NCBI GenBank assembly: GCA_029263175.1
Contig: JAJCXZ010000091.1
Coordinates: 10,699-74,698, forward strand
Length of the DNA stretch: 64,000 nt
Direction of reading: 5' to 3'
From: Acidimicrobiales bacterium
GTDB taxonomy: Bacteria > Actinomycetota > Acidimicrobiia > Acidimicrobiales > Aldehydirespiratoraceae
Shown piece by piece: positions 4,545-56,800 of this stretch (position 1 is its first letter; every line of letters begins with the position of its first letter). The notes below the pieces were generated by a model. That model had not been told where the DNA came from and ran no database searches. It worked only from the letters and a program-made list of their open reading frames with translations. Both the position numbers and the translations under genes were made by a program.

Positions 4545-4829
4545 GTGAAGATCGTGGCTGGCGACATGTTGGTGATGAGCAAGAGTCAGATGGAGCAGCT
4601 GGCGGGAAACTTCGGCCGCCAACAGCAAGCAGTGCAGGATGTGATCCGGGCGATCCAAGGTGGGATCGACAGCACCACCTGGCAGGGCGCACGCGCCGAC
4701 CGGTTCCAAACTTTGTGGAACACCGAGTTCCGACCAAACCTCACGAACCTGGTCAACGCGCTGGGGGAGCACTCCACCTTCATCAGTCGTGAGCTCCAGG
4801 CCGGTGTCTCGGCCCTCGACACCGTCTGA
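4545..4829 (+). CDS. WXG100 (ESAT-6-like) family protein
   Basis: The ORF is 94 aa with a central W-x-G (DSTTWQGARADRF) between two helix-like halves. It sits immediately upstream of an FtsK/SpoIIIE ATPase. The start is ambiguous (GTG 4545, GTG 4554 or ATG 4566). Confidence 0.8.
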   Translation: MKIVAGDMLVMSKSQMEQLAGNFGRQQQAVQDVIRAIQGGIDSTTWQGARADRFQTLWNTEFRPNLTNLVNALGEHSTFISRELQAGVSALDTV

Positions 4830-4854
4830 CCACAAACGCCCGGAGGAATGGATC

Positions 4855-7800
4855 GTGCGTGGGCTCCGGGTGGTCGATCGCCTCGACCGTGAGGTTGAGG
4901 TATCTGTCTACGGCGAGGATCTCTCGGCGGATGACCTCGCCGGTGCACTGGAGCCCACCACACACTCCGCCACGATCGCTCTTCGTCGTGGCGTCATCGT
5001 CGATGGGCGGTGGCATCCCCCCACCACCCCCATCGACCAGCTCGACCTTCGCCAGGGATCGCTTGTCCACCCAAGCCCCACGCCCCCCGTGGTCCCGGCG
5101 AAACCAGCGGCCCGGGCTCTGTTGTCGGCGGACGACAGGGCTCGGGCTGATGGCTCGCCCGTTGCTGTGGTGGAGGGCATCGGCCTAATCGACGGCGTCG
5201 TGCCGTTCAACCGGCCACCGCGGCTCACCCCTGCAGTTGAGCCCGCAGCCATCTGCGTGCCCTCGGCCCCGCCCGACCCGCCGCCTCGCGAACCGCTGTC
5301 GATCGCGGGGATCGTCTTGCCGATTGTCGGTGGTGCGGTCATCGCGCTGCTGCTGTCACCCATGCTGGCCGTCTTCGCCGCCCTGGGTTCGTTCATCACC
5401 ATCGGGATGTGGTGGGAGCGTCGACACCGCGCCGATCGCGAACATCGTGAGGCCACCGTGCGCGAGCGCGAGGCCTGCGCCGCGCTCGAGGCCCGACTGC
5501 CGCTGCTCTGTGCCGCCGAGACCATCAGGCGGAGAGACCTCGTGCCGACGGTTGACGTGGTCGTCGACCGGGCTACCCGCCTTTCGTCGCGAATCTGGGA
5601 GCGCGGCGCGGATGATCTCGACGCATTTCTGGTGGGGATCGGCACCATCGTGGATCGATTTGCACCCACTCTTCAGGTGGAGGGGGATGGCGCGGATCCC
5701 GAGCCGAGCAGCCTGGCCATCGATGCCATCAACTCGACTTCGCCACTCGCTGGAGTTCCCTTGGTGATCGACCTCGCCCCTGGACGCATCGTGGGAATTG
5801 TCGGTCCGCGTGCTGCCGCGCAAGGTGCGGGGCGGGCGCTTGCCGCGCAACTCGTTGTCCACCACGGTCCGTCCGTTTCTCGCGTGGTCGTGGCGGCGTC
5901 GGCGTCAGCGGTTGCCGACTGGGCATGGTGTCGTTGGCTTCCGCACTGCGGCGACCCCGACGACGGCGAAGCAGGCGCACTTCTCGGCGTCACCACCGAA
6001 TCCACCATCGCCGATCGAGCCCTTGCCGGGCTCTCGCCGGAGTCGACCACCGCAGTGGTCGGGATCCTCGATGACCCTGGTGCGTTCCATGGTCGTGACA
6101 CGGTCGGCCGCCGTTTGGTCGTGCACGAGCGTGTGGCTCTGGTTGTCATTGCCCCAAGTGTCGACCGCCTTCCCGCCGGCTGCACCGATCTCTTGCAGAT
6201 CGATCGCGCCGGGCGAATTGTCCACCGTGATCCGCGCAGCGCCGAGGGAGCCACGACCGGCGCGGTGTGGGATCTCTCCATCTCGCAAGCCGCGGCCGCG
6301 GCCCGGCGCCTCGCTCAATTGGACGATCCCGCTCTTCGTCGTCGTGACGCCGGTGTGCCTGACACCGTGCCGCTGCTTCGAACCCTCGGCCTCAGCGGCG
6401 ATGACCCTGGCGAGATCGATGGTTCTTGGGGCCGCACCACGGGCACCGATGCGTTGACGGCGATCATCGGCGCCGACGCTCACGGCGCGGTCGAGCTCGA
6501 TCTCATCGCCGATGGGCCGCACCTTCTTGTCGGCGGCACCACCGGCTCGGGGAAGTCCGAGCTCCTCCGTTCGCTGATCGCCGGGTTGGCAGCCACCCAT
6601 GATCCGCACCACTGCGCCTTCGTGCTGATCGACTACAAGGGGGGCGCCGCCTTCGACTGTTGCCGCGAGCTGCCCCACATCGCTGGATTCGTCACCGATC
6701 TCGATCAATCGTTGGCGGCTCGTGCACTGCGATGCCTCGAAGCCGAATTGCGCCACCGCGAGCATCGTCTACGAGCGGCGGGCGCCCAAGACATTGCCGC
6801 CTTCCGGGCACTCTCCCTGCCTGGTCCGGCGCTGCCGCGGATGCTCGTCGTGGTCGACGAGTTCGCGACACTCGCATCCGAGCTCCCGGAGTTCCTCGAC
6901 GCACTCGTCGGCATCGCCCAGCGAGGTCGAAGCCTCGGTGTCCATCTCGTGCTCGCCACGCAACGCCCGGCGGGTGTGGTCACCGACGACATCCGGGCCA
7001 ATGCCGGTTGTCGCATCGCCTTGCGAGTGACCGACAGCCACGACTCCGTCGACGTGATCGGCACGCCCGATGCGGCTGCGATCCCGCGCTCGCGGCCGGG
7101 TCGGGCAATCGCTCGACTCGGTCCATCCGAGTTGATCGCGTTTCAGTCGGCCATCATCACAGGGCAGCAGGCTCGACAGGCCCCGATCGAGGTTCGAATC
7201 GTTGGGGATCGGGATGCATTGCGTCTCGACCCTGCCGACGACGAGTCGTCAGACCTTCAGCGCCTTGTCCACGTCATCGGCCTGGCGTGGGGCGATCGCC
7301 CCCGCCCCCGGTCTCCGTGGCCCGATGCGCTTCCCCCGGCCGCCGAGCGCGGCGCTGACGGATGGTGGCTGGTGGACGATCCCGAAGGTCAATGTCGGCG
7401 AGTGGAAGGCTGGACCCCGGCCGATGGTCACCTCGTGGTGGTCGGTGGACCCGGCAGTGGCGCCACCTCGACGCTCGTGGAGGCCGCGTTCAGCAGCATC
7501 GAGAGCGGCGGTCACGTCTACGTCATTGACCTGGATGCAGGTGACCTCGGCGCGCTCGAATCACTCGAGCCGGTCGGGCTCGTCGTCGGGCCAACGGACG
7601 CCGAGCGGCGACGTCGACTTCTGCGGCGACTTGATGCTGAGGTCGCCGATCGACGAGCAGCCGTTGCAAAGGGAGACGGGCCGATCCTTCTGGTGGTCGA
7701 CGACCTTGGCGGCTTCGACCGTGCTCACGATCCGATTCGAGACAGCGAGGTCCATGATCAGCTGGCTCGCATCTGGGCCGATGGCCCGACGGTGGGCGTC

Positions 7801-8685
7801 GTCGTGGCCACATCCCTTCGGCGGGCTGCTGAATTGCCGACTGCCATGGCTGCTACAGCCGGCACGGTGCTCCTTCACGGCACGGCTGACCCCGCCGATG
7901 CATTCCGATTCGGCCTGTCGAGCAACGAGGGTGTCCTGCCGCCGGGCCGAGCGCGCCGGACGAGCGATGGCGCGCTCCTGCACGTGATGCGCTCTGGGCG
8001 AAACCTCGAGGAGGCGACTTCCGCCTGGGCGAGCAGCCGCCCTGCGCAACCGCCGTTTGTGATCGGCACGCTGGCTCGGTCGATCGACGCTGCCGATGTG
8101 GGGGCCTCAGTCACCATGGAAGCGGCGGCAAGGCTTCACATCGCCGTCGCTGATTCCGACCTCGGCCTGACGTCGCTCACGCTGCATTCCGGTGAGCATG
8201 CGCTCGTGCTCGGCCCGGCTCGCAGTGGTCGCACCACGGCCTTGGTCACGATCGGTCGTCTCGCTCGGTCTGTGGTCGTGGTGGGCTCGGGATCTGCGGT
8301 GGCGGCAGCTCTCGAAATCGAGCCGATCGAGCCGCACGCGCTTGACGCGATGCTCGCCGATCGCGGACCCACACTGATCCTGGTCGATGACTGCCTCGGC
8401 GTGGAGGATCCGACCGGCGGCCTCGCCCGGCTGATTCGCATGCCGCCGGAAGGTGTTCACCTCGTGGCGACCGCGCAGCCCGGCCGGCTCCGTCAGGCCT
8501 ACGGCCATTGGGCCACCGACCTCGCGGCTTCGCGAGCCGGAATCCTCCTCCAGCCCGATTCGTTGGATGGTGACCTACTCGGCGCACCGCTCCCGAGCCG
8601 ACTCCGCCGCATCGACGTGCCGGGCCGAGGCTTCCTGGTCGCCGACGGTCATGCTCGTCTCGCTCAGCTGGTCCATCACGTCTGA
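4855..8685 (+). CDS. eccC: EccC/EssC-like FtsK/SpoIIIE-family type VII secretion ATPase (three P-loop domains)
   Basis: Track ORF 4660..8685 trimmed to GTG 4855, with GGAGGA 7 nt upstream. Two TM helices (IAGIVLPIVGGAVIALLLSPMLAVFAALGSFITIGMWW) are followed by three P-loop domains: D1 GGTTGSGKSELL / MLVVVDEFATL, D2 GGPGSGATSTL / ILLVVDDLGGF, and D3 GPARSGRTTAL / TLILVDDCLG. Confidence 0.9.
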   Translation: MRGLRVVDRLDREVEVSVYGEDLSADDLAGALEPTTHSATIALRRGVIVDGRWHPPTTPIDQLDLRQGSLVHPSPTPPVVPAKPAARALLSADDRARADGSPVAVVEGIGLIDGVVPFNRPPRLTPAVEPAAICVPSAPPDPPPREPLSIAGIVLPIVGGAVIALLLSPMLAVFAALGSFITIGMWWERRHRADREHREATVREREACAALEARLPLLCAAETIRRRDLVPTVDVVVDRATRLSSRIWERGADDLDAFLVGIGTIVDRFAPTLQVEGDGADPEPSSLAIDAINSTSPLAGVPLVIDLAPGRIVGIVGPRAAAQGAGRALAAQLVVHHGPSVSRVVVAASASAVADWAWCRWLPHCGDPDDGEAGALLGVTTESTIADRALAGLSPESTTAVVGILDDPGAFHGRDTVGRRLVVHERVALVVIAPSVDRLPAGCTDLLQIDRAGRIVHRDPRSAEGATTGAVWDLSISQAAAAARRLAQLDDPALRRRDAGVPDTVPLLRTLGLSGDDPGEIDGSWGRTTGTDALTAIIGADAHGAVELDLIADGPHLLVGGTTGSGKSELLRSLIAGLAATHDPHHCAFVLIDYKGGAAFDCCRELPHIAGFVTDLDQSLAARALRCLEAELRHREHRLRAAGAQDIAAFRALSLPGPALPRMLVVVDEFATLASELPEFLDALVGIAQRGRSLGVHLVLATQRPAGVVTDDIRANAGCRIALRVTDSHDSVDVIGTPDAAAIPRSRPGRAIARLGPSELIAFQSAIITGQQARQAPIEVRIVGDRDALRLDPADDESSDLQRLVHVIGLAWGDRPRPRSPWPDALPPAAERGADGWWLVDDPEGQCRRVEGWTPADGHLVVVGGPGSGATSTLVEAAFSSIESGGHVYVIDLDAGDLGALESLEPVGLVVGPTDAERRRRLLRRLDAEVADRRAAVAKGDGPILLVVDDLGGFDRAHDPIRDSEVHDQLARIWADGPTVGVVVATSLRRAAELPTAMAATAGTVLLHGTADPADAFRFGLSSNEGVLPPGRARRTSDGALLHVMRSGRNLEEATSAWASSRPAQPPFVIGTLARSIDAADVGASVTMEAAARLHIAVADSDLGLTSLTLHSGEHALVLGPARSGRTTALVTIGRLARSVVVVGSGSAVAAALEIEPIEPHALDAMLADRGPTLILVDDCLGVEDPTGGLARLIRMPPEGVHLVATAQPGRLRQAYGHWATDLAASRAGILLQPDSLDGDLLGAPLPSRLRRIDVPGRGFLVADGHARLAQLVHHV

Positions 8686-27902: not shown

Positions 27903-28820
27903 ATGTCGCGCCAACAATCTCAGCTCACCTGCCCGCTCGTTCGTCACCTCGTAAAAGCTCTCGGCTTCCTCCTGGTCCTCGCGCTGGGAGCGAGCGCGTG
28001 CGGCGGATCGAGCTCGACCGGCGAAGCGGGATCCGGTTCGTCGACGCCTGACGACATCCCGGGGACGGAGGCGTTTGGCCTGACCGAAGAGGAGTTCACT
28101 CAGCACGTCGAGGGCGTGGAGAGCTCGATTGCCGCCTGCATGGCGGAGGCAGGATTCGAATACATCCCGCTCGACGTGCAGACCATCCACAGCGTCAGCG
28201 ACTGGCTGCGTACCGAGCCCGGCGTTTCTCGGCTCGACTACAAAACCGAGTGGGGCTTCGCGGCGAGCACTCGATTCGACGACCCCGCGGTCGAGGTCAG
28301 CCGCGGCGAACAGAACATCGCCATCTTCGACACGCTCACCGAGGCCGATCAGGCCGCGTACGAGCGCACCCTTTGGGGCGACGATGCTGACGCCACGTTC
28401 GGCATCCTGCTCGACGACGAGGGATTCGACGCGGCCGGCGGCTGCACTCTCACCGCAGTCGAGGAGATATTCGATGCGGACATGATCCAGGACTCGTTCA
28501 TCAATCCGAAAGACGTGCTGATCGAAGCCGACCCTCGCGTGATCGCCGCTGACGAGGCATGGGTGGGGTGCATGCTCGACGCCGGGTACGACTACGGCGA
28601 CCAGGACGAAATCATCGACGAGTATGAAGAGCGCCTCGATGCACTGCTCGATGGTGACGAGCCCGACGAGCTCGACGCTGCAAAGACCGACGCACTGGCC
28701 GCGCTCCAACGCGAGGAAATCGAGGCGGCGCTTGTCGACTACAAATGCCAGTCGGATCACGTCGACGACGTCATCCGTGAAGTCGAGATCGAGGTCTTCG
28801 GCTTCGCGGTGAGCAACTGA
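27903..28820 (+). CDS. Acidic lipoprotein of unknown function (paralog 1)
   Basis: The ORF is 305 aa with the lipobox-like LALGASAC-GG. Four Cys are conserved with the next gene. Confidence 0.75.
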   Translation: MSRQQSQLTCPLVRHLVKALGFLLVLALGASACGGSSSTGEAGSGSSTPDDIPGTEAFGLTEEEFTQHVEGVESSIAACMAEAGFEYIPLDVQTIHSVSDWLRTEPGVSRLDYKTEWGFAASTRFDDPAVEVSRGEQNIAIFDTLTEADQAAYERTLWGDDADATFGILLDDEGFDAAGGCTLTAVEEIFDADMIQDSFINPKDVLIEADPRVIAADEAWVGCMLDAGYDYGDQDEIIDEYEERLDALLDGDEPDELDAAKTDALAALQREEIEAALVDYKCQSDHVDDVIREVEIEVFGFAVSN

Positions 28821-29680
28821 TGCGTTTCCACCAGGCCCCAACGGTCGCCGGCGTGGTGGTGTCCCTTGCCATGCTGGCGGCCGGCTGCGGTGGGTCGGCC
28901 GGCTCGGGTCCCGTCTCCGAGTCGGCCGCCATCGGTGGCGAAGAGTTCGGGCTCACGATGGGTGAACTCTCCGAGCGTGCGGAGGACGCCGAGCGGTTGA
29001 TCGGCGAGTGCATGTCAGTCGCCGGCTTTGAGTATGTGCCGGTCGACTTCTCCACCATCCGCGACGCAATGACGAGCGACAAGACCGCCGCCGGCATGAG
29101 TGGTGCGGAGTTCCGCGCCGAGTTCGGGTACGGGATCTCGACACAAGAGGCCAAGCCCATCGTCGAGCTCGGGCGTGGCGCAGAGAACATCGTCATCTTC
29201 GAAGCGCTCTCCGCCGCCGATCAGGCCGCCTACCAGCGCACGCTCTATGGCACTGACCTGGAAGCGACTTTGGCGTACTCGCTCGAGCTCGAAGATCTCA
29301 GCCGGACCGGTGGCTGCACCCGGGAGGCGCTCACCTTGCTGTTCACCTCCGAAGAGTTGGCCGTCACGTACCTGAACCCAGGTGACGCATTGGTCGAGTC
29401 AGACCTGCGAGTGCTCGCGGCCGGAGAGGCGTTTGCGGCGTGTATGCAGGCCGCCGGCTTCGAATACGCCCATCCCGACGGGGTCGAGGACTCGATCTAC
29501 GAACGCTATATGGCGATCACCGACGGTGAACCGATCGACTCGCTGACGGCCGCAGCGCAGGCTGAGCTACAGACATTGCAGGATCACGAACGTGCTGTTG
29601 CTCCTGTTGCCCAGCAGTGCGAGATCGATGTCTTCGAGCCGGTCGCAGATCTGGTCGAACGAGAGGTCTTCGGGTCCTGA
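28820..29680 (+). CDS. Acidic lipoprotein of unknown function (paralog 2)
   Basis: The ORF is 286 aa with the lipobox MLAAGC-GG. It is colinear with paralog 1: CM..AGFEY appears twice, with QAAY.RTL.G and GGCT. Confidence 0.75.
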   Translation: MRFHQAPTVAGVVVSLAMLAAGCGGSAGSGPVSESAAIGGEEFGLTMGELSERAEDAERLIGECMSVAGFEYVPVDFSTIRDAMTSDKTAAGMSGAEFRAEFGYGISTQEAKPIVELGRGAENIVIFEALSAADQAAYQRTLYGTDLEATLAYSLELEDLSRTGGCTREALTLLFTSEELAVTYLNPGDALVESDLRVLAAGEAFAACMQAAGFEYAHPDGVEDSIYERYMAITDGEPIDSLTAAAQAELQTLQDHERAVAPVAQQCEIDVFEPVADLVEREVFGS

Positions 29681-29721
29681 AAGTCACGCTGGGGTCTGTC
29701 CCCAGCGTGACTTGCTCAGGA
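29675..29721. repeat. 33-nt palindromic REP-like element, copy 3 (perfect 14-bp arms plus 6-bp outer stem); probable bidirectional terminator
   Basis: TCCTGA-AAGTCACGCTGGGG-TCTGT-CCCCAGCGTGACTT-gc-TCAGGA. The outer arms contain the stop codons of both convergent genes (29678-29680 and 29716-29718). Confidence 0.85.
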
Positions 29722-30687
29722 CCGCCGGCGAAGGTGAGCAGGGATTGCAGTTCCCAGCTCTGCTGCGATCGACTCCAGTCGGTCGTCGATAGGCGCGCCG
29801 ATCGCGGCAAGGGCGCAGTTCAAAATCGAGAAGTTGCCGGCGCCCATCGCGATTCCGTCGGCGCCCACGCGGCCGAGCGCGAACTCTGCTCTGACCCGGC
29901 AGTCCGGGTACTCATCGTCATCTCGGAGCGCGACCGCATCGGCGAACGCACGGATCACGTCGCCCTTGGCCACGCCACAGTTGCCCAATCCGGAAGTGAT
30001 CGTGGGGCAGATCAGCTCGCTCCCTTCGATGGTCTTGATGCTCGCACGGAGCATCGCGGTGTGGGAGAGCAGTCAATAGAAGCAGTCGTTGAGCCAGCTG
30101 GTTCGAGCTGCCGTCAGCTCGATCTGCGTGCGGTGAATGCCGTCGCGAACGATCTCGTTGTCACCCATCTGTTCGAGCGACAGGTAGAGCACGCCGTGGA
30201 CGTCGAACATGGCTTCGACTTCGTCGGGAACCGCCGAAAGTGACCCGGGCGCCCATGCCGGCCCGACGGTGGGGACCCAGCCATCGCTGACGACGGCATC
30301 ATCGGGACGCGTGCGTGACGGTTCGCCTGGTTGCGGGTCGGGGAGCGGTCGCTCGTCGAAGCCAAGGCCGAAGCCGGTGACGTCGATTGCCGCCAGCCGC
30401 GAGACGACACTGACCAACTCGACGTAGGCGAACGGGTCGAGGCCATCGTCGGCCCAACGGTCGATGTCGACTTGTCGGATCGTCGAGGCTTCAACGGAAA
30501 CCCGTCGCGCTGCTTCTGTCGCCGCGTCCGGCAGGCCCCCGGTGGTCGGCGCACCGAGGTGCGCACGGCGAGCTTCGTCGGCGATCGCCACCCGTTCGGC
30601 CCCGGTCCACCATGTGCCGGCGTTGGCCAGGCGATCCCACTCTCGGTCGACCAGAGCGTCGAACTCGGCGGTGAGAGTGGTGCTCAC
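29716..30687 (-). CDS. AhpD/carboxymuconolactone-decarboxylase-like protein with in-frame TGA (candidate selenocysteine) at 30075-30073
   Basis: Track ORFs 30073..30744 and 29716..30054 are in the same frame, separated only by a TGA. The joined sequence reads ...TSWLNDCFY-[TGA]-LLSHTAMLRASIK..., which is the family motif N-x-C-x-Y-C-x-x-x-H with TGA at the second Cys. GC-rich third codon positions continue for 339 nt after the TGA. The start is taken as GTG 30687, 7 nt after the qor stop. Confidence 0.6.
30015..30070 (-). promoter_or_regulatory. SECIS-like stem-loop downstream of the in-frame UGA
   Basis: The upper stem GAUGCUC-CGUGC-GAGCAUC (30055..30037) starts 17 nt after the UGA and has GU in its loop. 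A possible lower helix pairs GCUCUCCC (30070-30063) with GGGAGCGAGC (30024-30015). Confidence 0.4.
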
Positions 30688-30694
30688 TGCTCGC

Positions 30695-31666
30695 TCATGG
30701 GCGAAGTAGCAACTTGCCGGTGGTCTGGCGGGCTTCCAGTGCACGATGCGCCTCGGCCGCCTGGGCCAGAGGAAGTTCGAGGCCGATTCGGACCTCGAGT
30801 TCGCCGGACTCGACCCAGCCGACGATCTCGTTCCACCGTCCGTCGCGCTCCTCCGGTGTGATCACGAAGTCGAACAACTTCGGCCTGGTCAGGAACAGGG
30901 ACTTTGCCATCAGCGCGATCGGAGCAACGGGAGGGACCGGGCCTGATGCGTTGCCGAACGTGGCCATGGTGCCGCGGATTCGAAGAACGGCGAGTCCGGC
31001 TTCGAAGGTGCTGGCGCCGACTCCGTCGTACACAACATCGATGGCGTTCTTGCCAACAGCAGCCTCCACGCCTTCGACGATGTCGACTCTCTCGTAGTTG
31101 ATGACATGGTCAGCCCCGGCGGAGCGCGCCAGCTCGGCCTTTGCGTCTGTGCCGACGGTGGCCACGACCTCGGCGCCGCGCAGCTTGGCCATCTGCACAA
31201 GCAGTCGTCCGGTGCCTCCCGCCGCGGCGTGAATCAGGCAACGATCACCGGGGCCGAGCGGGTAGACGGAATCGATGAGGTAGTGAGCGGTCATTCCCTG
31301 GAGCGGCAACGCCGCGGCGGCGGTGAGCGACATCGATTCTGGGACGTTGAGCGCGACTGCCGCGGAGACGGAGACCTGGCTTGCGTACGAGCCGGGTCCT
31401 CCTGCCCACGCAACAGCGTCGCCGACTGCGAAACCGGAGACTCCGTCGCCGAGCGCGGTGATCGTACCGGAGCCCTCGGAACCGGGGATCAGCGGCAGCT
31501 CCATCTCGTAGAGACCCGAGCGGTGATAGGTGTCTATGAAGTTGACGCTGGCCGCATGGACGTCGATCAGGAGCTCGCCTGCGGTGGGTTCGAGATCCGG
31601 GAGCTCACGAAGCCGAAGAACGTCTGGCCCACCGTGTTCGTCGATTTGGACAACAGTTCGTGACAT
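30695..31666 (-). CDS. qor: NADPH:quinone oxidoreductase (zeta-crystallin / MDR family)
   Basis: C-terminal 323 aa of the fused track ORF 30695..33325, starting at ATG 31666 (MSRTVVQIDEHGGPDVLRLRELP...). It has AAAGGTGRLLVQMAKLRGA and typical Qor colinearity. Confidence 0.9.
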   Translation of the reverse strand: MSRTVVQIDEHGGPDVLRLRELPDLEPTAGELLIDVHAASVNFIDTYHRSGLYEMELPLIPGSEGSGTITALGDGVSGFAVGDAVAWAGGPGSYASQVSVSAAVALNVPESMSLTAAAALPLQGMTAHYLIDSVYPLGPGDRCLIHAAAGGTGRLLVQMAKLRGAEVVATVGTDAKAELARSAGADHVINYERVDIVEGVEAAVGKNAIDVVYDGVGASTFEAGLAVLRIRGTMATFGNASGPVPPVAPIALMAKSLFLTRPKLFDFVITPEERDGRWNEIVGWVESGELEVRIGLELPLAQAAEAHRALEARQTTGKLLLRP

Positions 31667-47834: not shown

Positions 47835-47898
47835 CGGGCTTTTGCGCCACCTGCCGCGCGGTGAACGAGCGCGAGGTGTCAGAGATCGGTGGGGGTGG
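47835..47898 (+). repeat. ~65-nt structured interspersed repeat, copy B (overlaps the 3' end of the giant gene)
   Basis: CGGGCTTTTGCGCCACCTGCCGCGCGGTGAACGAGCGCGAGGTGTCAGAGATCGGTGGGGGTGG. Confidence 0.85.
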
Positions 47899-50800
47899 TT
47901 CGGGTGAGCTCTTCGAAGCGCGACTGCGCCTGAGCGAAGTCAGCTGTGTCGAAGAGCTCGGCGGCCGCCAGCATCTCTTCCTCGAACGAGAACACAGCCA
48001 GGGCGTGCCATTCGTTTCCATCGCGGTCGCCGAACTCCGGCTCGACGAAGAGCACCGTGTCCGACATGGCGTGGACGGCCACCAGACGGTTGTGGAACCC
48101 GTCGGCGACCTCGGGGAAGGCCGTTTGAAGCTCGATCCATCCAGCGGCGTCGACGGTTCCGAAGCTGGCGGACCGGTGGTCGACAGCGACAAAGTCAGCC
48201 GCGAGGACGGACGAGTTCAGCTCGGCGTTGCCCCTCTCTTGCGCGGCCATCGCCCGCCCGAGTGCTAGCCACGACTCCGCTCCCGTGGTGGTGAGCGACT
48301 CAGCGAACCAGCGGTCGAGTATTTCGTATGCCCCGGATTCGGCTTCGGGTTCGAAGACTGCGGCCCTACGTATGAGCCCGGCGTCGTCGACCTCAACAAC
48401 GGTGAGTCGGGGCTCGGTGAACCCATCAACTGTGAAGTGGATCGTGTCGCCGGCCAGGCACAGATGGTCGAGCCTTGTGGCGCGCAGGCCCCTGGTTGCA
48501 CGGGCAACCATCTTGTGGTCGAGAACGTCGCGGAGCAGCTCACGCATGTCGTCGATGGTCCGCCGACCTGCAGAGATGAGCGTGTGGTCCTCCAAGACAC
48601 CCTGCGGGTGCCAGAGGGCGAGTGCGGCCTCGAGATCGTGATCCTCGAAGAGCGCCTTGCCGTAGGCGCTCATCGCTTGAAGGGCTCGATTCTGTAGCGC
48701 CGGAGCGGCGATGGCGAGCTCGTCGAAGCGCGCCAGGGCAGCGTCAAGATCGTCAAGGTCGTAGAACTCGGCGGCTGAGAGAGATCCCGACCTGCTCAAC
48801 GAGAAGACGGCAACGAAGCGCCACTCGTTGTCGGAGCTATCGCCGAATTGCAGCTCGAGCACGAAACCATTGGCGGAGATCGAGTGGACGGCATTCAGAC
48901 GGTTCCAAAAGCCCTCCGTTTCGCTGTGGAAGCTGTGTTGGAGGTCGATGTAGTCATCGAGGTCGACCGTTCCCCACCCACCAAGTCGATGATCGATGGC
49001 TCGAAAATCGGGCCCGGCAAGATCTCGCAGAAGGGGTTCCACCTCGTCAGCTCGGGTGAGATCGACGCTCGTCAGCAGCAGCTCGAAAATCGCCAGCACC
49101 TCAGGGTCGAGAGTGTCGGCGAACCACTCGTCGAGATGCACCATGGCATGGTCCAGTTGGTCGAGATCGAGGCTCATCAGCCGCGACACCGCGCCGCTGG
49201 GTACGACCTGTGACAGGACCAACGACTCGAGGGCGAACTCCGGCTCGGGCCCAAATCGCCATTGTTGGAGGATCAGGTCCTCTCCACGCGTGGCGATGGT
49301 CGTGACCTGTGGTTCACCGTTCGAGCGGATGAGCTCGAGCGTGGCGTCGATCATTTGTCGGGCCGTGACGATCCCGAGACCGAGACGGCGGGTCGAGGAG
49401 AACTCAGTATCGGCACCGTAGATCTCCGCCAGACCCGCCTCATCGAGGGCGGCCATGCAGGAGCGGACCTTCTCCATCGCGCGTCCAGCGTGCGTGTTCG
49501 CCAGCCCACACAGCTCATGGAACCGCGCAAGAGCCATGTCGAACGCCGTGGTCTCGTAGAACTCGGCGGTGCGGCCCATCGCCTCCCGATAGGAGAAGAC
49601 GCCGAGGAAGCTCCACTCGTTGCCGCTGTCATCGGCGATCTGCATCTCAGCGAGCAAGGCCGTCGGCGAAATTGCCCCGACCGTGACCAGACGATTCCGT
49701 AGCCCAGTGGTCAGGCGGTGGAATCCAAGCTGAAGCTCCACCCAGCCGTCCACACCGACTCGGCCCCACCCTGCCGGTCGGTGATCGGTGGCGCTGAAGT
49801 CCTGATGCAGCTGGGCGCGTATCGCCGTCTCGTCCCCCAATTGTTGGGCCCGCATTCCTTCTCGATGTGCCTCGAAGACCGTTCCCTCGTCTGCGGTCAG
49901 TGAATCGGCGAACCAGCCGTCGAGAAGCGCGAAGGCATCGTCGCTCTGCTCGGGCTCGAAGTAGGCGTAGCGAGTGATCAGGCTGGCGTCGTTGACCTCA
50001 CAGATGGTGAGCCGCTCGTGCACGAACCCTTCGACTGAAAGCTCGCTCGTGGTGCTGAGGAGGCAGACATGCTGGCCGCGAGTTGCCAGAACCTCGGTCA
50101 GGGACGCGGCAAAGTCCTCGTTGTCCATCAGATCAGCGGCGACGGCCCGCCACTGCTCGACCGTATAGGTCGTGTCGAAGAGCGCTCGACGATCCTGCAT
50201 GACGGCGTTTGACGCGTACTGCTCCAACATCGTTTCGATGTCGCGAGCGAAGAACGCATCTCGGGCTCGGGCGGCCGTCGCCGAGGCTCGGTTCGACAGG
50301 CGGTCTGTCGGGACTGTCAGCTCGTCGAATCGGGCGAGCGCTGCGTCGATACTGTCGACGTCGAATTCCTCCCAGCGCATGACGAGGCTGTCATGCACTT
50401 CGACGAGCAGAAGCGACCGCCACTCCGTCTCGGTGCCCAACGCATCGACGGCGCGTGGTTCGGTGTCGAGCACGCACACGGTCTCGGAAATGGCGAGGAC
50501 GCCGTGGGAAACGGCGGTTACGTCTCCCGCGAGTTCCAACCAGGTGCGCATGCTCTCGATGAAGCCGTCGGCGTCCTGTTCGTGGCCGATCACGCTCTTG
50601 TTGACGCTGAGGGCGAAGTCCGGCGCCAGCGCGGCTCGGGCTCGTTCCCAATCGTGGGCGTAGAGGGCATCAATGAGATCCAAGAGCGGGTCGACGACGC
50701 TCCGAGCTCGAGCGCCATCCAGATCCGACTCGTACCAGAGCTCGATCGCGTGGCGCTGCGCTTCATAGAACTCGGCGTAGTCGAATGCCCTTGCTCCATC

Positions 50801-53800
50801 AGGTGATCCGATTCGGACGCGAGATCGATCGCGGTCGAGCTCGATGGTCACCGGCTGGGTCGAACCGAGCTGGCAGACCAGCTCCCATCGAGGGGCCGTG
50901 AGCTCGTCGAACCGACCGACAGCGGCGTCCACGGCATCGACGTCGAACCACTCCATGCGGTCGACGAGTTCGCCATCGAGGATGAAGAGGACAAGACGAG
51001 GCCCCTCGACGTTGACACCGGTTTCGCCCTTGACCGTGCTCACGAGCTCGAGCAACACACCCTCCTCTGTCACGCGGAGATAGCTACTCGGGCTGGTTCG
51101 CCATGAACCCTGACCCTGAATGTCGGCGAGCGAATCGAGGTATTGGTCGATCGTCAACTCGCCGAAGCCGATCGAACGGCGGTCGACGAGCGTGAACGAG
51201 TCGGTGAGGCTCTCGCGCATGCCTTCACCATCGGTGCGGCGCAACGCAGCGCCGACCCGATCGGTCGTCTCGATCGCAGCGCGGAATGGCGCAGCCTCAC
51301 CTTCGAGCCACCACTCACGAAGGAGGCGCAGCGCCTCAGCCATCTGGGTGGTGTCGAATGCGGTGAGGCGCTTCTGCAGGCCGGCATCGTCGACTTCTAG
51401 GACGGCGAGGAACTCGATTTCGTCGTCATTCCCGGTGGCGAACCGGATCGTGGCCAGGATGAGCTGTTCACCTCGAAACGCGATGACCGCGGTGTCGAAG
51501 CGATCGAAGCCGACGGCGACGAACGCGTTGATGACATCTAGGTGTTCGGCCAGAGCGAAAACACGAGCGCCGCCGGTGCTGTGTCGAAGAGATGTGTCGA
51601 CATAGTCCGATCGGAGGAGCGCCGCATAGCTGTCGATATCGCCTGCTGTCAGTGCCGCGATTGCCTTTGCGTGCGACTGCTCGGCGAGCGTTTGGTGCTG
51701 TCTTCGATCGATGCCGGAAGCGCGGTCGGGGGGAGTGTTCTTGTCGGCCACATATCCGGTTAGTTCGTCAAAGCGAGCGAGGGCCCGATCGAGCTCGTGA
51801 CCGTCGAACCATTCACCGCGGGCGATCTTGCCGTCACGAACCACCGTCATGAAGACCAGCTCTGATTCGGCCTCGAACCCGTCGTTGGTGCGGGTGACGT
51901 GGCGGCCTGTGGCCACCGTGCCAGATCCGGTGAGCCGGTGGAATTCCGTGGCGAAGACTTGCTCGCTGCTCTGGCCGTCGGTCCACTCGCCGACGAGGTC
52001 AGCCGCGTCCGACCGGTCCATGGTTGGCAATCCGAGCTCCCGATGGTCGACGAACTCTGCGTCCGCGAGCATGTCCGCGGCGAGCTCCTCCGCCCTGCCG
52101 TGCTCGAGGTTGTGTGAGGTGCGGGTCAGCAGTCGGATGATTTCGGCGTGCTCCGGCGTCTCGCCCTCCGCCCACCAGTCGCTGAGGCGGTCGACTGCCT
52201 CGCCCATCGCTTCGGGGTCGAGCAACTCGGCGCGCGTCACGAGCCCGGCAGAGTCGATCTGTGCGACGGCGATCATCTGGCTGACGTAGCCATTGGACGG
52301 CCGGTCCATGTCCGCCGTGAATAGGGCCAAGTCGTCCCCTCGAATCGCCTGAAGAGTGAGCGAGATGCCGACCACATCGGCGTCCTTCATCCTGTGGACG
52401 TGCTCCTCGGGCGTGTAGATCTCGTGGCGCAGCTGCCGACTGTCGTGGATGAATGCTGCCGGACTGAAGCTCGCAATCACCGCCTCCCAGTCTTGAGCGT
52501 TGATGGCCGCGACCTGGCGCGCCCAAACGGCAGACGCACGATTGCCGAATCGGTCGGCCGGTTCGCGCGTCAACTCGTCGTACCGGGCTATGGCGCGATC
52601 GAGATCGTCGACGTCGAACAGCTCGATGCGGGTGGCGAGACCGTCGGTACCGAGGACGAGCGTGTACATCTGCCACTCGACGTGGCCGCCCGCCTCGTCG
52701 AATTCGAGGGTCTGCACGTGGACCAGGATCGACTCGCCGGCAATGCGTACGTAGTCGCGGACGATGACTTGGTTCTGGTCGGCCTCGTAGCTGGCTGCCA
52801 GGTTTGCGCTTCCCTCGCGATTCATCGTGCCGAAACCCAGGCGGCGATGGTCGACGAAGACAAGATCGTCTGCCATCCGGTCGCGGTGGGCGTCGGCGCG
52901 ATCCCCAGCATTGCTTTCACCGGCAATGCTGAACGACCATGCCAACTCGATGATCTCTCGGTACGGTGCTCCCTCGCCCTCGAGGTAGAGCTGGTTGAGC
53001 TTGTCGAGCGCGCCGCGAAGATCATCGGCCGGGTACGCAACTGTCGTCTCGACCTGGCCACCGGTATCGAGACGGATCACTCGATAGCGGGCCGCTTCGG
53101 CGCTGCCCACACGTGAGGCGACACAACGCTGACCTCGTCGCGCGACGGTCTCAACGGTGAGTCCTTTCGCCGCCGCTTCGGTCCGGGCGACCTGTTCGGC
53201 CGCAGTGAGGTCGACCGCCGGACTCCCGGACACGTCCTCGAATCGGCGAATGGCCCGGTCGAGGTCGTGGAAGTAGAAGAGTTCCATCCGGGTGAGCCGG
53301 CCAGCGGCGAAACTCATCAGCGAGAGGCCCGGCTCCTGTTCGATGTGGCGGCCGTCAGTATTCGAATGGGCGCGGTAGTCAAGAAGGATGGCTGTGGGAC
53401 TGATGCGGAGATAGCGGCGAGCGACGATGAGGAATCCGGCGGCTGAGGCGGTCTCCACAAGCATGGCAAGGAGCGGAACCTCGATCTTGAGCCGCTGGTG
53501 GTCGACGAAGACCCCATCGGGATCGACCAGCCTCTCAACTGTCGCGACATCGCCGTCCACGTTCGCCTGCCGGAATCTGGTGCTGATATCGATCGGCTCG
53601 GCGAAGTCCGCGCCCTCGCCCTCGAGATAGAGGCGATTCAGCTCGTCGAGTGCCGGGCGAATGTCGTCCTCCCCCAAGAACACGCCGTAGTCGGACAATC
53701 CGTTTGCCGCCGTCCGCGAGACGATCAGCGATGTGTTGACGAAGCCGTTTTCGGCTTCCATCCGCCAGGAGACGAGCGCAAGCCGGTCGCCGCGGATGGC

Positions 53801-56800
53801 GATCGGCTTGGCCGTGACGGTGAGGCCGAACTCGGCCCGAGAGCGCATGGCATCGATTCGATCCTTTGCGCCGACCGACGGGTGCCCCATCTGACGGGTG
53901 TCGACGCTGTCGTAGTCCTCGGCGAACTGCTCCAAGGCTTCGTCCCAACCCTTGGCGTTGACCAGGTCGCACACGCGGAGGATGCCTCGGGTCGCCGCGT
54001 TGTCGAGCGCGAAGTGATCTGGATTGGTGGGGTCCCTGGTGGCAAGAACTCGCGCCTCCAGCTCCTCCCAGGCGGCACGCAGTCGGGCCTCGTCCGGCGA
54101 GAGTGCGAGCGTGTCGAACATCGCCAGCGCCTCGGATTCGGTATCAAACACCCAGCAGCGTTGCAGTCTGGCGCGGTCCGACAGCTGGTTGACCTGGAAC
54201 CACTGGACTGTTCCGCTGCCGTCGGTGGCAGCGAGGGATGACTCGACGAGGACGATGTCTTCGCCACGCGTCGCGATGACCACGACTCGATGGCCGAAGT
54301 CCGGCAGGCCCTCCATCGCCGTAATGAACGCCTCCTGCATCTGGTCGGTGCCGGCGAGGACGCTTTGCATCCCCTGGCGACAGTCTTCGAAACGCACGTC
54401 GGGCTCGCTGAGCCCCGTGAAGCTCGGATCGCCGCTCCAGACGAGGCGGGATATCAGTCGGGCTGATCGGGCACAGACATTGTCCGGAACGACCGATTCG
54501 ACGGCATTCGACGCTGTCGCCGCCGGGGCATCGGCGGCCGTTGGCGGCTGTGCGCCCTTCGCCTCATAGAGGCTCGCCGCTTGACGTGATGCGCCGTCGG
54601 CCGAGGCTGCGTTGCCGGCGCGGGCATGCACGACGGCAAGCGTCGACACGGCCCGAGCGTGATCGATCGTGAGGTCGGTGCCTCCGGCGATCTCGACGGC
54701 GGCCTCCGCCAATGCGATCGCTTCGTCGAACCGGCCCTGTTCCGCGGCGATCTCCGCGCCGGCGGCCCGTGAGGCGATCGCCGTTTGGAGATTCTGGCCC
54801 GCCAGTTCCTGCGACTCGACCGCAAGGGGAGCGGCCTGGTCGACACGGCCCTGCAGGACGAGTGCCCGCGAGAGCAAGGCGGCCGCCTGGCCGGCATCAG
54901 CACCAATCCCGAGATTGCCGAGCCCGGCATAGGCACGACGGAGGAACGGTTCGGCCGCCGCCGGGTCGTCGGCGAAGAGCTCGATCACGCCGGCGAACAT
55001 GTCGGTCTCGAGGATGCCGTGGCGCAGACCGAGCTCTTCGACCGTCCCACGGGCTCGCTCGATCAGCTCTCGGGCCTGATCGAACCGTCCCCTCATCGCT
55101 TCCAGCACAGCCTGGCACCGCACCGAGGTGGCCTCGACCATCGGCGAGGCAGACGTGATGCGGAGGAGACGAATGATGTCGAGGCAGCGGCCGCCGGCGC
55201 GGGCAACCGGGGAAGGACCCCAGAGAGCGGCGAGGGGCGCGGCGCCGAGGACGGCGGTGATACGACGGCGGTCGTCGGCCGCGCGGGCGGCCGTGAGCGC
55301 GGCGTCGAGTTCGGTCTCGGCGTCGCCGACGCGGCCGAGACGAGCGAGCACAATTGCCCGCACGAGGCGGGCCTTGGCGACGCCGGCTTGGTCATCGAGG
55401 GCATCGAGCAGCGAAGCGGCGTTGTCGAGCTGTGGTTCGACCGCGCCGAGTCGCTCCGGTTCGGCGAGCCACGCACGATGGCCGGCGAAGGCGTCGGCCC
55501 ACGCCGTCAATCGAACGTCATCGAGTGCAACTTCGCGGAGCTCATCGAAGTGAGGATCGGCCTCTCGGACATTGCCCGAGGAGAAGAACGCCTCGCAGGC
55601 GACGACCAACAGGTCGGCTCGTTCCGGAGCGTCGTTGGGGAGTCGGGCGAGCGCCCGTTGGGCCAACGAACCAGCCGCAGTGAGGTCGTCCTGGGCCAGG
55701 GCTCGCTCACCGGCGATCTGGAAGAGCTGCGCCGCTTTGCCGCCCAGCTCTTCGGCGTCGTCGTCCATTGCGCCGAGCTGGCTTCGAAACTCGTGCGCCT
55801 GTTCGTAGTGAAACCCGATGGTGATCTCGTGCTCGCCGCCGAAGCGCTCCGCGGCATCGGAGGTCCATTCGGCCACCTGCTCATGGAGAGCGGCTCGGCG
55901 TTGCTTCAGGATGCGGCGGTAGCTCGCGTCGCGGATGAGGACGTGGTGGAAGCGAAGGATCGGCTCATCGCCCCAGTAGGTGCCGGTCGGGTCGATGATC
56001 TCCTTGCGGCGGAGACGCTCGAGGATGGCATCGAGCCCTGCTCGCTCGGCGGCCGGGAGGAGAGCAGCGACGGCGCCGCGGGCGAACTCGGATCCGACGA
56101 TCGCCGCCATCTCGACCACGCGCCGTTCGTCGGCCGGCATGCGCTCGACGCGGCTGGCCAGCAAGGACTGGATCGTCGGGGGGACTTCGATCGCTTCCGG
56201 GTCGATCGCCAGTTCCCACCGGCCATCTCGTTCGTGGATCACACCGTCGTCGACCAGCATTCGCACCAACTCACGCACGAAGAGCGGGTTGCCGTCCGTG
56301 GACTCGGGCAGGCGGGCGACGAGTTCGGTCGGGAGGGCTGCGCCGAGGAGGCCGGCGGCGAGTTCCTCGGTGGCAGCTGCGCCGAGGCCCTCGAGCGAGA
56401 CCACCTCGCTGACTCGGCGGCCGACCTCGGCCAGGGCCGGGCGGATCTCTCGGATCTCGGGTCGGGCCAGGCAGATGAGCGCCACGGGTCCTGCCACCCA
56501 TTCGGTCAGGTGGTCGAGGAGGTCGAGGAAAAGCGGCTGAGCCCACTGGATGTCGTCGACCACGATGACCGTGGGGCGCCGGCTAGCGAGGATTTCGAGG
56601 AGACGGCGGCTGGCCCAGAACGACTCCTCGGTACTCCGGGCAGGCGATGCGCCGACGAAGGTGGCCAGCAGGGGAGCGAGGACTCCCACATCGCCGTCGT
56701 TGCCGATCCATGTCTCGATCGCCGTGATCGTTGTCCCTGAATCGCTGCCTTCGAGATCCACTACTTGACGAAGTAGGTCACCGACGGGGCCGAACGAGGC

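What the first reader, a model, noticed from the sequence alone, without database searches (positions are those of the whole stretch)
29716..30687. AhpD-like gene with TGA at the second Cys of the CxxCxxxH motif: candidate selenoprotein split by gene callers
Seen directly: two track ORFs (30073..30744 and 29716..30054) are in one frame and are separated only by the TGA at 30075-30073. The joined translation reads SWLNDCFY-[TGA]-LLSHTAML.

Established: the AhpD/carboxymuconolactone-decarboxylase fold carries a redox motif N-x-C-x-Y-C-x-x-x-H. AhpD-like proteins are among the bacterial families reported to have selenocysteine-containing members, with Sec replacing a redox Cys.

The TGA falls exactly on the second Cys, with the His four residues later. 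Coding-type GC3-rich codons continue for 339 nt after it. A hairpin GAUGCUC-CGUGC-GAGCAUC starts 17 nt downstream with GU in its loop, and a possible lower helix spans 30070-30015. This fits the general bacterial SECIS geometry.

Inference: the protein is a C-x-x-U selenoprotein co-transcribed with the upstream quinone oxidoreductase. The alternative is a Cys-to-stop pseudogene or a sequencing error.
Basis: partly seen in the sequence, partly recalled or inferred. Interest (0 to 1): 0.7.

Follow-up and report, generated by a model that had tools for sequence, protein, structure and literature searches.

The report
Known AhpD-related selenoprotein gene, split

Summary
A single minus-strand frame runs from GTG 30687 to TGA 29716. 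It has one in-frame TGA at 30075-30073, inside ...NDCFY-[TGA]-LLSH.

The joined protein scores 222 bits (cut-off 175) on NCBIfam NF041238, [quoted passage not shown]. A 2026 review equates this family with "hypothetical protein 1" of the 2005 Sargasso Sea selenoproteome.

The same column is TGA in all 80 species genomes retrieved, never TGC, TGT, TAA or TAG. The frame stays open for 106-159 further codons in every one. Downstream dN/dS is 0.11-0.16 against the closest relatives, the same as upstream.

A hairpin 17 nt after the UGA (7 bp, loop CGUGC, -10.4 kcal/mol) meets the published bacterial SECIS constraints. Its synonymous sites are frozen across the family. Glu190, Cys202, Sec205 and His209 reproduce the AhpD catalytic pattern.

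Not shown: selA, selB, selD and tRNA-Sec are absent from the 64-kb window, and the rest of the genome could not be read. The quinone oxidoreductase is a neighbour only in close relatives. This copy has seven lineage-unique substitutions in codons 274-294, unexplained. Novelty: already known.

The parts
29716..30687 (-). Complete selenoprotein gene: 323 residues (Sec at 205) plus terminal TGA. Member of NCBIfam NF041238 (AhpD_rel_CFYUT).
   Evidence: frame; 222.3 bits against cut-off 175, E 1e-65, residues 7-312 on profile positions 3-347 of 357; Met at the aligned start position in relatives.
30073..30075 (-). In-frame UGA read as selenocysteine (residue 205), at the second position of the C-x-x-U redox motif.
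   Evidence: TGA at this column in 80 of 80 species genomes; 118 of the 120 best homologues are truncated exactly here; the column aligns with the second Cys of CxxC in solved AhpD-like proteins.
30037..30055 (-). SECIS-type hairpin: 7-bp stem GAUGCUC/GAGCAUC with apical loop CGUGC (loop at 30048-30044). There are 24 nt between the UGA and the loop.
   Evidence: fold.: -10.4 kcal/mol, meets all four bSECIS constraints quoted in PMC13188914, as do 73 of 81 sequences; the 5-bp core and loop G29 are invariant; pair 22-38 is AU 25, CG 18, GC 2; synonymous sites are frozen.
30082..30084 (-). Cys202 codon (TGC), the partner of Sec205 in the C-x-x-U motif.
   Evidence: Invariant in alignments A1, A2 and A6.
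30061..30063 (-). His209 codon (CAC), four residues after Sec. It lies between the TGA and the first downstream ATG.
   Evidence: His in 81 of 81 sequences. Aligns with the His of CxxCxxxH in PDB homologues.
30118..30120 (-). Glu190 codon (GAG), 12 residues before Cys202. This is the same spacing as the catalytic Glu of M. tuberculosis AhpD (spacing recalled from my own knowledge).
   Evidence: Invariant in A1, A2 and A6. Aligned with the conserved Glu of solved AhpD-like proteins.
30695..31666 (-). Upstream zinc-type alcohol dehydrogenase / quinone oxidoreductase family gene. Its stop codon lies 7 nt before the selenoprotein start, so it is probably the operon partner in this lineage.
   Evidence: ADH_N, ADH_zinc_N; directly upstream only in the closest relatives (L001-L003, L008, L083, L084).
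29674..29722 (-). Very stable hairpin overlapping the gene's own stop codon, between convergent genes. It is probably a transcription terminator.
   Evidence: -38.7 kcal/mol, z = -8.2 against 200 shuffles. The simple terminator scan did not flag it because it has no T-run.
29806..29868 (-). Codons 274-294: a cluster of seven amino-acid changes unique to this copy (D274V, R278G, V282G, M288I, M289L, R291C, D294A).
   Evidence: R291 is R or K, and D294 is D, in all 80 other sequences.

Best explanation
Window 30687-29716 (minus strand) is one gene for a 323-residue selenoprotein of the AhpD-related family NF041238.

The UGA at 30075-30073 would be decoded as selenocysteine by SelB·GTP·Sec-tRNA(Sec). 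SelB would be recruited by the hairpin at 30055-30037 that lies inside the coding sequence. That decoding step is inferred from the element's geometry and conservation and was not tested.

The product is an all-helical protein. Its C-terminal half (about residues 150-305) has the AhpD/carboxymuconolactone-decarboxylase fold. Cys202 sits just before a helix and Sec205 in its first turn. His209 is one turn later, and Glu190 is on the preceding helix.

By analogy with AhpD, the selenolate of Sec205 is the attacking nucleophile and Cys202 resolves the intermediate into a selenenylsulfide, which is then re-reduced. This makes the protein a thiol/selenol-dependent peroxidase or disulfide reductase of unknown substrate. 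That mechanism is inferred.

In this lineage the gene follows a quinone-oxidoreductase gene by 7 nt and ends at a strong hairpin, so the two genes are probably one transcript. That is also inferred.
For: Family: NF041238 equivalog, 222.3 bits against cut-off 175. [quoted passage not shown]

Recoding:
- TGA in 80 of 80 species genomes from several phyla.
- the 120 best N-terminal hits include 118 that end at C-x-[YF], and the 120 best C-terminal hits are all orphan fragments of 109-158 aa.
- the frame stays open for 106-159 codons in 80 of 80. Downstream dN/dS is 0.11-0.16 with dS about 1 against the three closest genomes, the same as upstream.
- His209 lies between the TGA and the next ATG and is invariant.

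SECIS:
- conserved hairpin.
- Leu+8 is CTC in 81 of 81 (background 43%). Arg+9 is CGT or CGG in 74 of 81 and never CGC (background 41%). Codon +10 is always NNG although its amino acid varies. Ser+11 is AGC or AGT in 77 of 81 and never TCN (background 69%).
- the bSECIS constraints are met.

Fold and active site:
- profile against the PDB matches 6k40 at 3e-14, then 2pfx, 3c1l, 2prr and 2oyo, and MtAhpD 1gu9 at 7.6e-4.
- Q188, E190, C202, U205 and H209 are invariant.
- an AlphaFold model of the 52%-identical full-length homologue P0011 has pLDDT 96.5. Its best PDB matches are AhpD/CMD structures.
Against: No selA, selB or selD homologue and no tRNA is present in the 64-kb window. The rest of the 96-kb contig and of the genome could not be read, so the organism's Sec trait is not shown.

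Folded alone, the 66-nt stretch is no more stable than shuffles (z = -0.15). No Rfam family matches.

This copy carries seven lineage-unique substitutions in codons 274-294, including the only non-basic residue at 291 and the only non-Asp at 294 among 81 sequences. The copy may therefore be altered or beginning to decay.

No member of the family has been characterised biochemically, as far as the papers read here show. The chemistry is therefore an analogy.
Confidence: 0.9

Rival explanations
1. A relic selenoprotein gene. The lineage inherited the Sec gene but has recently lost, or is losing, Sec decoding. The part after the UGA would then no longer be translated and would be starting to decay.
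For:: there are 8 lineage-unique amino-acid changes in the 118 codons after the UGA against 4 in the 203 before it (Fisher p = 0.036). Seven are clustered in 21 codons and hit two otherwise invariant or near-invariant positions. No sel genes are in the window.
Against: There is no frameshift or extra stop in the 118 downstream codons. Downstream dN/dS against L001-L003 is 0.11-0.16. Codon-level parsimony on the window branch gives similar nonsynonymous to synonymous counts on both sides of the UGA: 4 to 10-14 downstream and 5-7 to 16-20 upstream. The SECIS hairpin is perfect here, with a 7-bp stem. The p-value is marginal and was computed after noticing the cluster.
Confidence: 0.05
2. Two real genes. 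The TGA is a true stop, and a second protein starts at ATG 30054 (MLRAS...), as the gene callers have it.
For:: callers annotate a 204-aa and a 112-aa ORF. The ATG is conserved in the Acidimicrobiia clade (57 of 81 sequences).
Against: That codon is CTG or another non-ATG codon in 24 of 81 sequences. The 18 nt between the TGA and this codon are in frame and encode the invariant His209. The stop is TGA in 80 of 80, while the real terminators are mixed. The AhpD fold and its CxxC...H motif would be cut in the middle of a helix.
Confidence: 0.03
3. A Cys-to-stop pseudogene or a sequencing/assembly error at this one codon.
For: TGA is one substitution away from TGC or TGT. The record is a metagenome-assembled contig.
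Against: The same TGA is present in 80 independent species genomes and in metagenomic contigs L083 and L084 from independent samples. No Cys-codon orthologue was found. The few sense variants carry Ser, Gly or Arg.
Confidence: 0.01

Closest known systems
NCBIfam NF041238 'AhpD_rel_CFYUT', alkylhydroperoxidase-related (seleno)protein. This is 'hypothetical protein 1' of the Sargasso Sea selenoproteome (PMC1088965; equated in PMC13188914).
   Same: Full-length match above the curated cut-off. C-x-x-U motif, about 320-360 residues, hairpin directly after the UGA.
   Different: The residue after Sec is Leu (CFYUL) in the Acidimicrobiia clade, not Thr as in the family's name. The Thr form is seen in the more distant clades, for example Alpha- and Gammaproteobacteria, Myxococcota and Binatia. 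This copy has unique R291C and D294A changes.
AhpD-like selenoproteins ('AhpD-like 1', COG2128/TIGR01926; 'AhpD-like 2' or CMD-like, PF02627) of marine metagenomes (PMC1088965, PMC2398784).
   Same: Same superfamily fold, same C-x-x-U motif with Sec at the second position, and marine bacteria.
   Different: Those are single-domain proteins of about 180 residues with many Cys homologues (299 Sec against 902 Cys in the GOS data). This protein has an extra N-terminal half of about 140 residues, scores 27.3 against a cut-off of 81.8 on TIGR01926, and only 23.1 against 23 on PF02627.
Mycobacterium tuberculosis AhpD (TIGR00777; PDB 1knc, 1gu9).
   Same: The pattern Glu-x11-Cys-x-x-Cys/Sec-x-x-x-His on the same helices. 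It is the likely model for the chemistry.
   Different: AhpD uses Cys, not Sec. It has 177 residues and works with AhpC and lipoamide (my own knowledge). The window protein scores 16.8 against a cut-off of 191.95. No ahpC gene is adjacent.
E. coli fdhF-type bacterial SECIS and the bSECIS consensus model (PMC13188914, Fig. 2).
   Same: Hairpin inside the coding sequence just after the UGA. Small apical loop with G followed by U in positions 2-3. Spacing of 24 nt, within the 16-37 nt range. Energy below -7.5 kcal/mol.
   Different: No sequence similarity to fdhF. No Rfam model matches. SelB binding was not tested.
Sestrin2 (PDB 5dj4, 5t0n).
   Same: Weak whole-chain structural match of the P0011 model (TMq 0.34-0.42 over about 375 columns). 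This hints at two AhpD-like halves in one chain.
   Different: The rmsd is 12-16 Å. An HMM-HMM comparison of the N-terminal and C-terminal halves is not significant (E 0.078). This is a lead, not a finding.

Membership tests
NCBIfam NF041238 (AhpD_rel_CFYUT) | Whole-protein HMM score at or above the curated cut-off of 175 bits | tested here: met
   222.3 bits, E 1e-65, residues 7-312 on profile positions 3-347 of 357 (Sec entered as Cys).
NCBIfam NF041238 (AhpD_rel_CFYUT) | C-F-Y-U-T type motif with the UGA at the fourth position | tested here: met
   the window reads C-F-Y-[TGA]-L. The fifth residue is L, M or V in the Acidimicrobiia clade and T in the more distant clades.
Bacterial selenoprotein gene | In-frame UGA at a column that is UGA (or Cys) in homologues, with the reading frame conserved beyond it | tested here: met
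   TGA in 80 of 80. 106-159 open codons follow in every case. Downstream dN/dS is 0.11-0.16.
Bacterial selenoprotein gene | bSECIS: 3-9 nt apical loop, 4-16 bp stem, G in the first two loop positions, 16-37 nt from the UGA, MFE of -7.5 kcal/mol or lower (PMC13188914) | tested here: met
   loop CGUGC, 7 bp, 24 nt spacing, -10.4 kcal/mol. 73 of 81 family sequences also pass; synonymous sites are frozen.
Bacterial selenoprotein gene | selA, selB, selC and selD present in the same genome | not testable with these tools
   None are in the 64-kb window. The source contig is 96 kb and could not be fetched.
Bacterial selenoprotein gene | Selenium actually incorporated (75Se labelling or mass spectrometry) | not testable with these tools
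   Experimental.
AhpD/CMD superfamily (Pfam PF02627) | Domain score at or above the gathering threshold, and the AhpD fold | tested here: met
   23.1 bits against 23, which is borderline; the family profile hits solved AhpD-like proteins at 3e-14; the best structural matches are AhpD/CMD structures (TMt 0.55-0.71).
Peroxidase-related enzyme / AhpD-like selenoprotein (TIGR01926) | Score at or above 81.8 bits | tested here: not met
   27.3 bits, local match to residues 183-230 only.
AhpD proper (TIGR00777) | Score at or above 191.95 bits | tested here: not met
   16.8 bits.

The most novel reading that the evidence does not exclude
In this family selenocysteine may be effectively irreplaceable. 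No Cys-codon form appeared among the 80 genomes or among the roughly 260 listed protein hits, and the five sense-codon variants found carry Ser, Gly or Arg. The protein may also be a two-domain, sestrin-like double AhpD fold with a dedicated substrate that is still unknown.

Separately, the window's copy has lost the superfamily-conserved Arg291 and the family-invariant Asp294. It may therefore be a neofunctionalised or decaying variant.
Probability: 0.15. Interest if true: 0.4.

Novelty: already known. Interest (0 to 1): 0.15.

Why it matters
This matters mainly for annotation. The record carries two unnamed fragments of 204 and 112 aa where there is one 323-residue selenoprotein. The same split occurs in hundreds of public gene calls for this family.

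The gene also marks its organism, a marine Acidimicrobiia-like actinobacterium to judge from its closest relatives, as a probable user of selenocysteine.

The family has no known substrate, so it remains a reasonable target for biochemistry. Its existence and its Sec codon are not new.

Tried and rejected
- Rfam, at gathering thresholds and at permissive E-values on the region, gave nothing relevant.
- ARAGORN found no tRNA in the window. Among 60 related loci it found only a tRNA-Ser in L018.
- tblastn with E. coli SelA, SelB and SelD against the window and 80 loci gave no window hit. The 'SelB' hits in L025 and L028 are TypA/BipA-type GTPases. SelD hits occur only in L054 and L056, as Ndh-SelD fusions.
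- Exact look-ups of the window's two fragments to fetch the rest of the contig failed.
- A search for a family-wide conserved neighbour found none beyond the two halves of the gene itself.
- A scan of the window for other TGA-joined coding pairs found only this one with a redox-like motif.
- The lower SECIS helix is not conserved.
- Internal duplication of the N-terminal and C-terminal halves is not significant by hhalign (E 0.078).
- Mixed alignments of N-terminal and C-terminal fragments were misaligned by MAFFT (A5, A7). Full-length anchor sequences were needed to fix this.
The 52%-identical natural full-length homologue P0011 was modelled instead.
- The simple terminator scan missed the strong hairpin at the 3' end because it lacks a T-run.

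Full report
**Observation**

On the minus strand a single reading frame runs from GTG 30687 to the terminal TGA at 29718-29716. It has 324 codons and one internal stop, TGA at 30075-30073, in the context ...RTSWLNDCFY-[TGA]-LLSHTAMLRA. The frame is open immediately after the TGA, so 118 sense codons follow it. GC3 is 0.77-0.79 on both sides. The start at 30687 is supported by homology, because the closest relatives begin with Met at the aligned position.

**What the protein is**

With Sec entered as Cys, the 323-residue product matches NCBIfam NF041238, [quoted passage not shown]. This is an equivalog model. The score is 222.3 bits against a curated cut-off of 175, over residues 7-312.

- It fails the cut-offs of the classical families: TIGR01926 gives 27.3 against 81.8, and TIGR00777 gives 16.8 against 191.95.
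- It touches the Pfam CMD threshold only just: 23.1 against 23.
[quoted passage not shown] That family was reported in 2005 with four Sec sequences and a CXXU motif (PMC1088965).
- AhpD-like CxxU selenoproteins in general are among the most abundant marine selenoprotein families (PMC2398784).

The kind of thing, and this family in particular, are therefore already described and curated.

**Is the TGA really a sense codon?**

- Of the 120 best protein homologues (40-91% identity), 118 are about 204 aa long and end exactly at C-x-[YF].
- Searching with the C-terminal part returns only orphan fragments of 109-158 aa among the 120 best hits.
- A scan of one genome per species found 256 genomes with a relative. 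In the 80 loci kept, the column is TGA in every one, never TGC, TGT, TAA or TAG. These loci are mostly Acidimicrobiia, with others labelled Thermoanaerobaculia, Myxococcota, Binatia, Alpha- and Gammaproteobacteria, Spirochaetales and Entotheonella.
- The real terminators of the same 80 genes are TGA 52, TAG 18 and TAA 10.
- The frame stays open for 106-159 further codons in all 80.
- Against the three closest genomes, dN/dS downstream of the TGA is 0.11-0.16 with dS near 1. This is indistinguishable from the upstream part, at 0.11-0.15.
- His209 lies in the 18 nt between the TGA and the next ATG and is invariant in 81 sequences.

These results exclude a pseudogene, a sequencing error, and two separate genes.

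**SECIS**

A hairpin begins 17 nt after the UGA, at window 30055-30037. It has the stem GAUGCUC/GAGCAUC and the loop CGUGC. In an ungapped alignment of 81 sequences, the core UGCUC-loop-GAGCA and loop G29 are essentially invariant. The next pair outward covaries: A-U 25, C-G 18, G-C 2.

The strongest evidence is at synonymous sites:

| Codon after the UGA | Observed | Background in the same genes |
|---|---|---|
| Leu +8 | CTC in 81 of 81 | CTC 43% |
| Arg +9 | CGT or CGG in 74 of 81, never CGC | CGC 41% |
| +10 | always NNG, although the amino acid varies (A, E, G, W, V, S) | not applicable |
| Ser +11 | AGC or AGT in 77 of 81, never TCN | TCN 69% |

The nucleotides are thus more conserved than the protein needs, as expected for an RNA element. 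The window hairpin has a 7-bp stem, a 5-nt loop with G then U at positions 2-3, 24 nt between the UGA and the loop, and an energy of -10.4 kcal/mol. It meets all four constraints of the published bacterial SECIS model (PMC13188914), as do 73 of 81 family sequences.

There are caveats. The 66-nt stretch alone is not more stable than shuffles (z = -0.15). No Rfam model matches.

**Fold and likely chemistry**

A profile of 17 full-length family members matches solved AhpD-like, peroxidase-related proteins over residues about 150-305. The best hits are 6k40 at 3e-14, then 2pfx, 3c1l, 2prr and 2oyo. M. tuberculosis AhpD (1gu9) matches at 7.6e-4. The TGA column falls on the second Cys of C-x-x-C-x-x-x-H. 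Q188, E190, C202, U205 and H209 are invariant.

The joined window sequence could not be submitted for modelling. I therefore modelled P0011, a natural full-length homologue that is 52% identical and has Arg at the Sec column.

- The model has pLDDT 96.5 and pTM 0.93 and is all-helical.
- The Cys sits just before a helix and the Sec position is in its first turn.
- The best PDB matches are AhpD/CMD structures (2gmy, 6k40, 2ijc, 2prr), with TM 0.55-0.71 over 150-165 columns.
- There is a weak whole-chain resemblance to Sestrin2.
- An HMM-HMM comparison of the two halves of the protein is not significant.

By analogy with AhpD, I infer a redox cycle between a selenolate/thiol pair and a selenenylsulfide. 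In AhpD, as I recall it, the second Cys is the nucleophile, activated through His and Glu. The substrate of this family is unknown and nothing here tests it.

**Context**

A zinc-type ADH / quinone-oxidoreductase gene (30695-31666) ends 7 nt before the start. A very stable hairpin (29674-29722, -38.7 kcal/mol, z = -8.2) overlaps the gene's stop codon, between convergent genes. Co-transcription is therefore plausible. The oxidoreductase is directly upstream only in the nearest relatives, and no neighbour is conserved across the family.

**What is not shown**

The window has no tRNA and no selA, selB or selD homologue. The window is part of a 96,072-bp NCBI contig, where the two fragments are unnamed. 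That contig could not be fetched. The Sec trait of this organism is therefore inferred only from the gene itself.

Supporting context is indirect:

- An Ndh-SelD fusion gene lies 3-5 kb from the family gene in two loci.
- Sec machinery is reported as universal in Actinomarina, which belongs to the Acidimicrobiia (bioRxiv 10.64898/2026.04.03.716425).
- SelA and SelB co-occur in most sponge-symbiont bins (PMC5649159).

**An oddity of this copy**

Compared with its four closest relatives, the window protein has 8 unique amino-acid changes in the 118 residues after Sec, against 4 in the 203 before it (Fisher p = 0.036). Seven of them lie within codons 274-294. They include R291C (R or K in the other 80) and D294A (D in the other 80). 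There is no frameshift or stop, and codon-level counts do not show a clear excess of nonsynonymous change. I read this as a lineage-specific change or a consensus artefact, and I give early decay a low probability.

**Verdict**

The feature is a member of a selenoprotein family first reported in 2005 and now curated in NCBIfam, which gene callers mis-split. It is of annotation value and low novelty.

Noticed in passing
window 29806-29868 (- strand, codons 274-294 of the gene): Seven amino-acid changes unique to this copy are clustered in 21 codons. They include R291C and D294A, at positions that are R/K and D in all 80 other family sequences. The cause is unknown: adaptation, decay or an assembly consensus error.
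   Followed up: partly
window 29674-29722: A hairpin with about 21 base pairs (-38.7 kcal/mol, z = -8.2) overlaps the gene's stop codon, in the 35-nt gap between convergent genes. It is probably a terminator without a T-run. The consensus scan missed it.
   Followed up: partly
window 47879-57754 (- strand): A 3291-residue ORF with an N-terminal zinc ribbon, an adenylate/guanylate cyclase domain, an AAA_16 ATPase domain and a SnoaL-like domain. Most of its length has no Pfam match.
   Followed up: no
window 4660-8685 (+ strand): A 1341-residue FtsK/SpoIIIE-family ATPase with a weak nSTAND NTPase match near the C-terminus.
   Followed up: no
window 27903-28820 and 28820-29680 (+ strand): Two adjacent ORFs of about 300 residues with no Pfam hit. 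They have lipoprotein-like N-termini (..ACGGS / ..GCGGS) and share repeated 'C-M-x-x-A-G-F-E-Y' motifs. They look like tandem paralogues.
   Followed up: no
proteins P0011, P0246, P0254, P0260, P0267 (family homologues): The only full-length, sense-codon forms found carry Arg, Gly, Gly, Ser and Ser at the Sec column, all consistent with a single-base change from TGA, and none carries Cys. P0011 and P0246 have an extra Cys near the motif.
   Followed up: partly
L054 4321-6723 and L056 6828-9107: Genes for an NADH-dehydrogenase-like / SelD fusion (Cys form, ...ECGGCAAK...) lie 3-5 kb from the family gene in two Spirochaetales-labelled MAGs.
   Followed up: partly
alignment A6, columns 62-78 (loci such as L058, L060, L061, L073, L074): The more distant clade of the family (Proteobacteria, Binatia, Entotheonella) has an insertion of about 17 residues in the N-terminal half. 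It carries a second C-x-L-C motif that is absent from the window protein.
   Followed up: no
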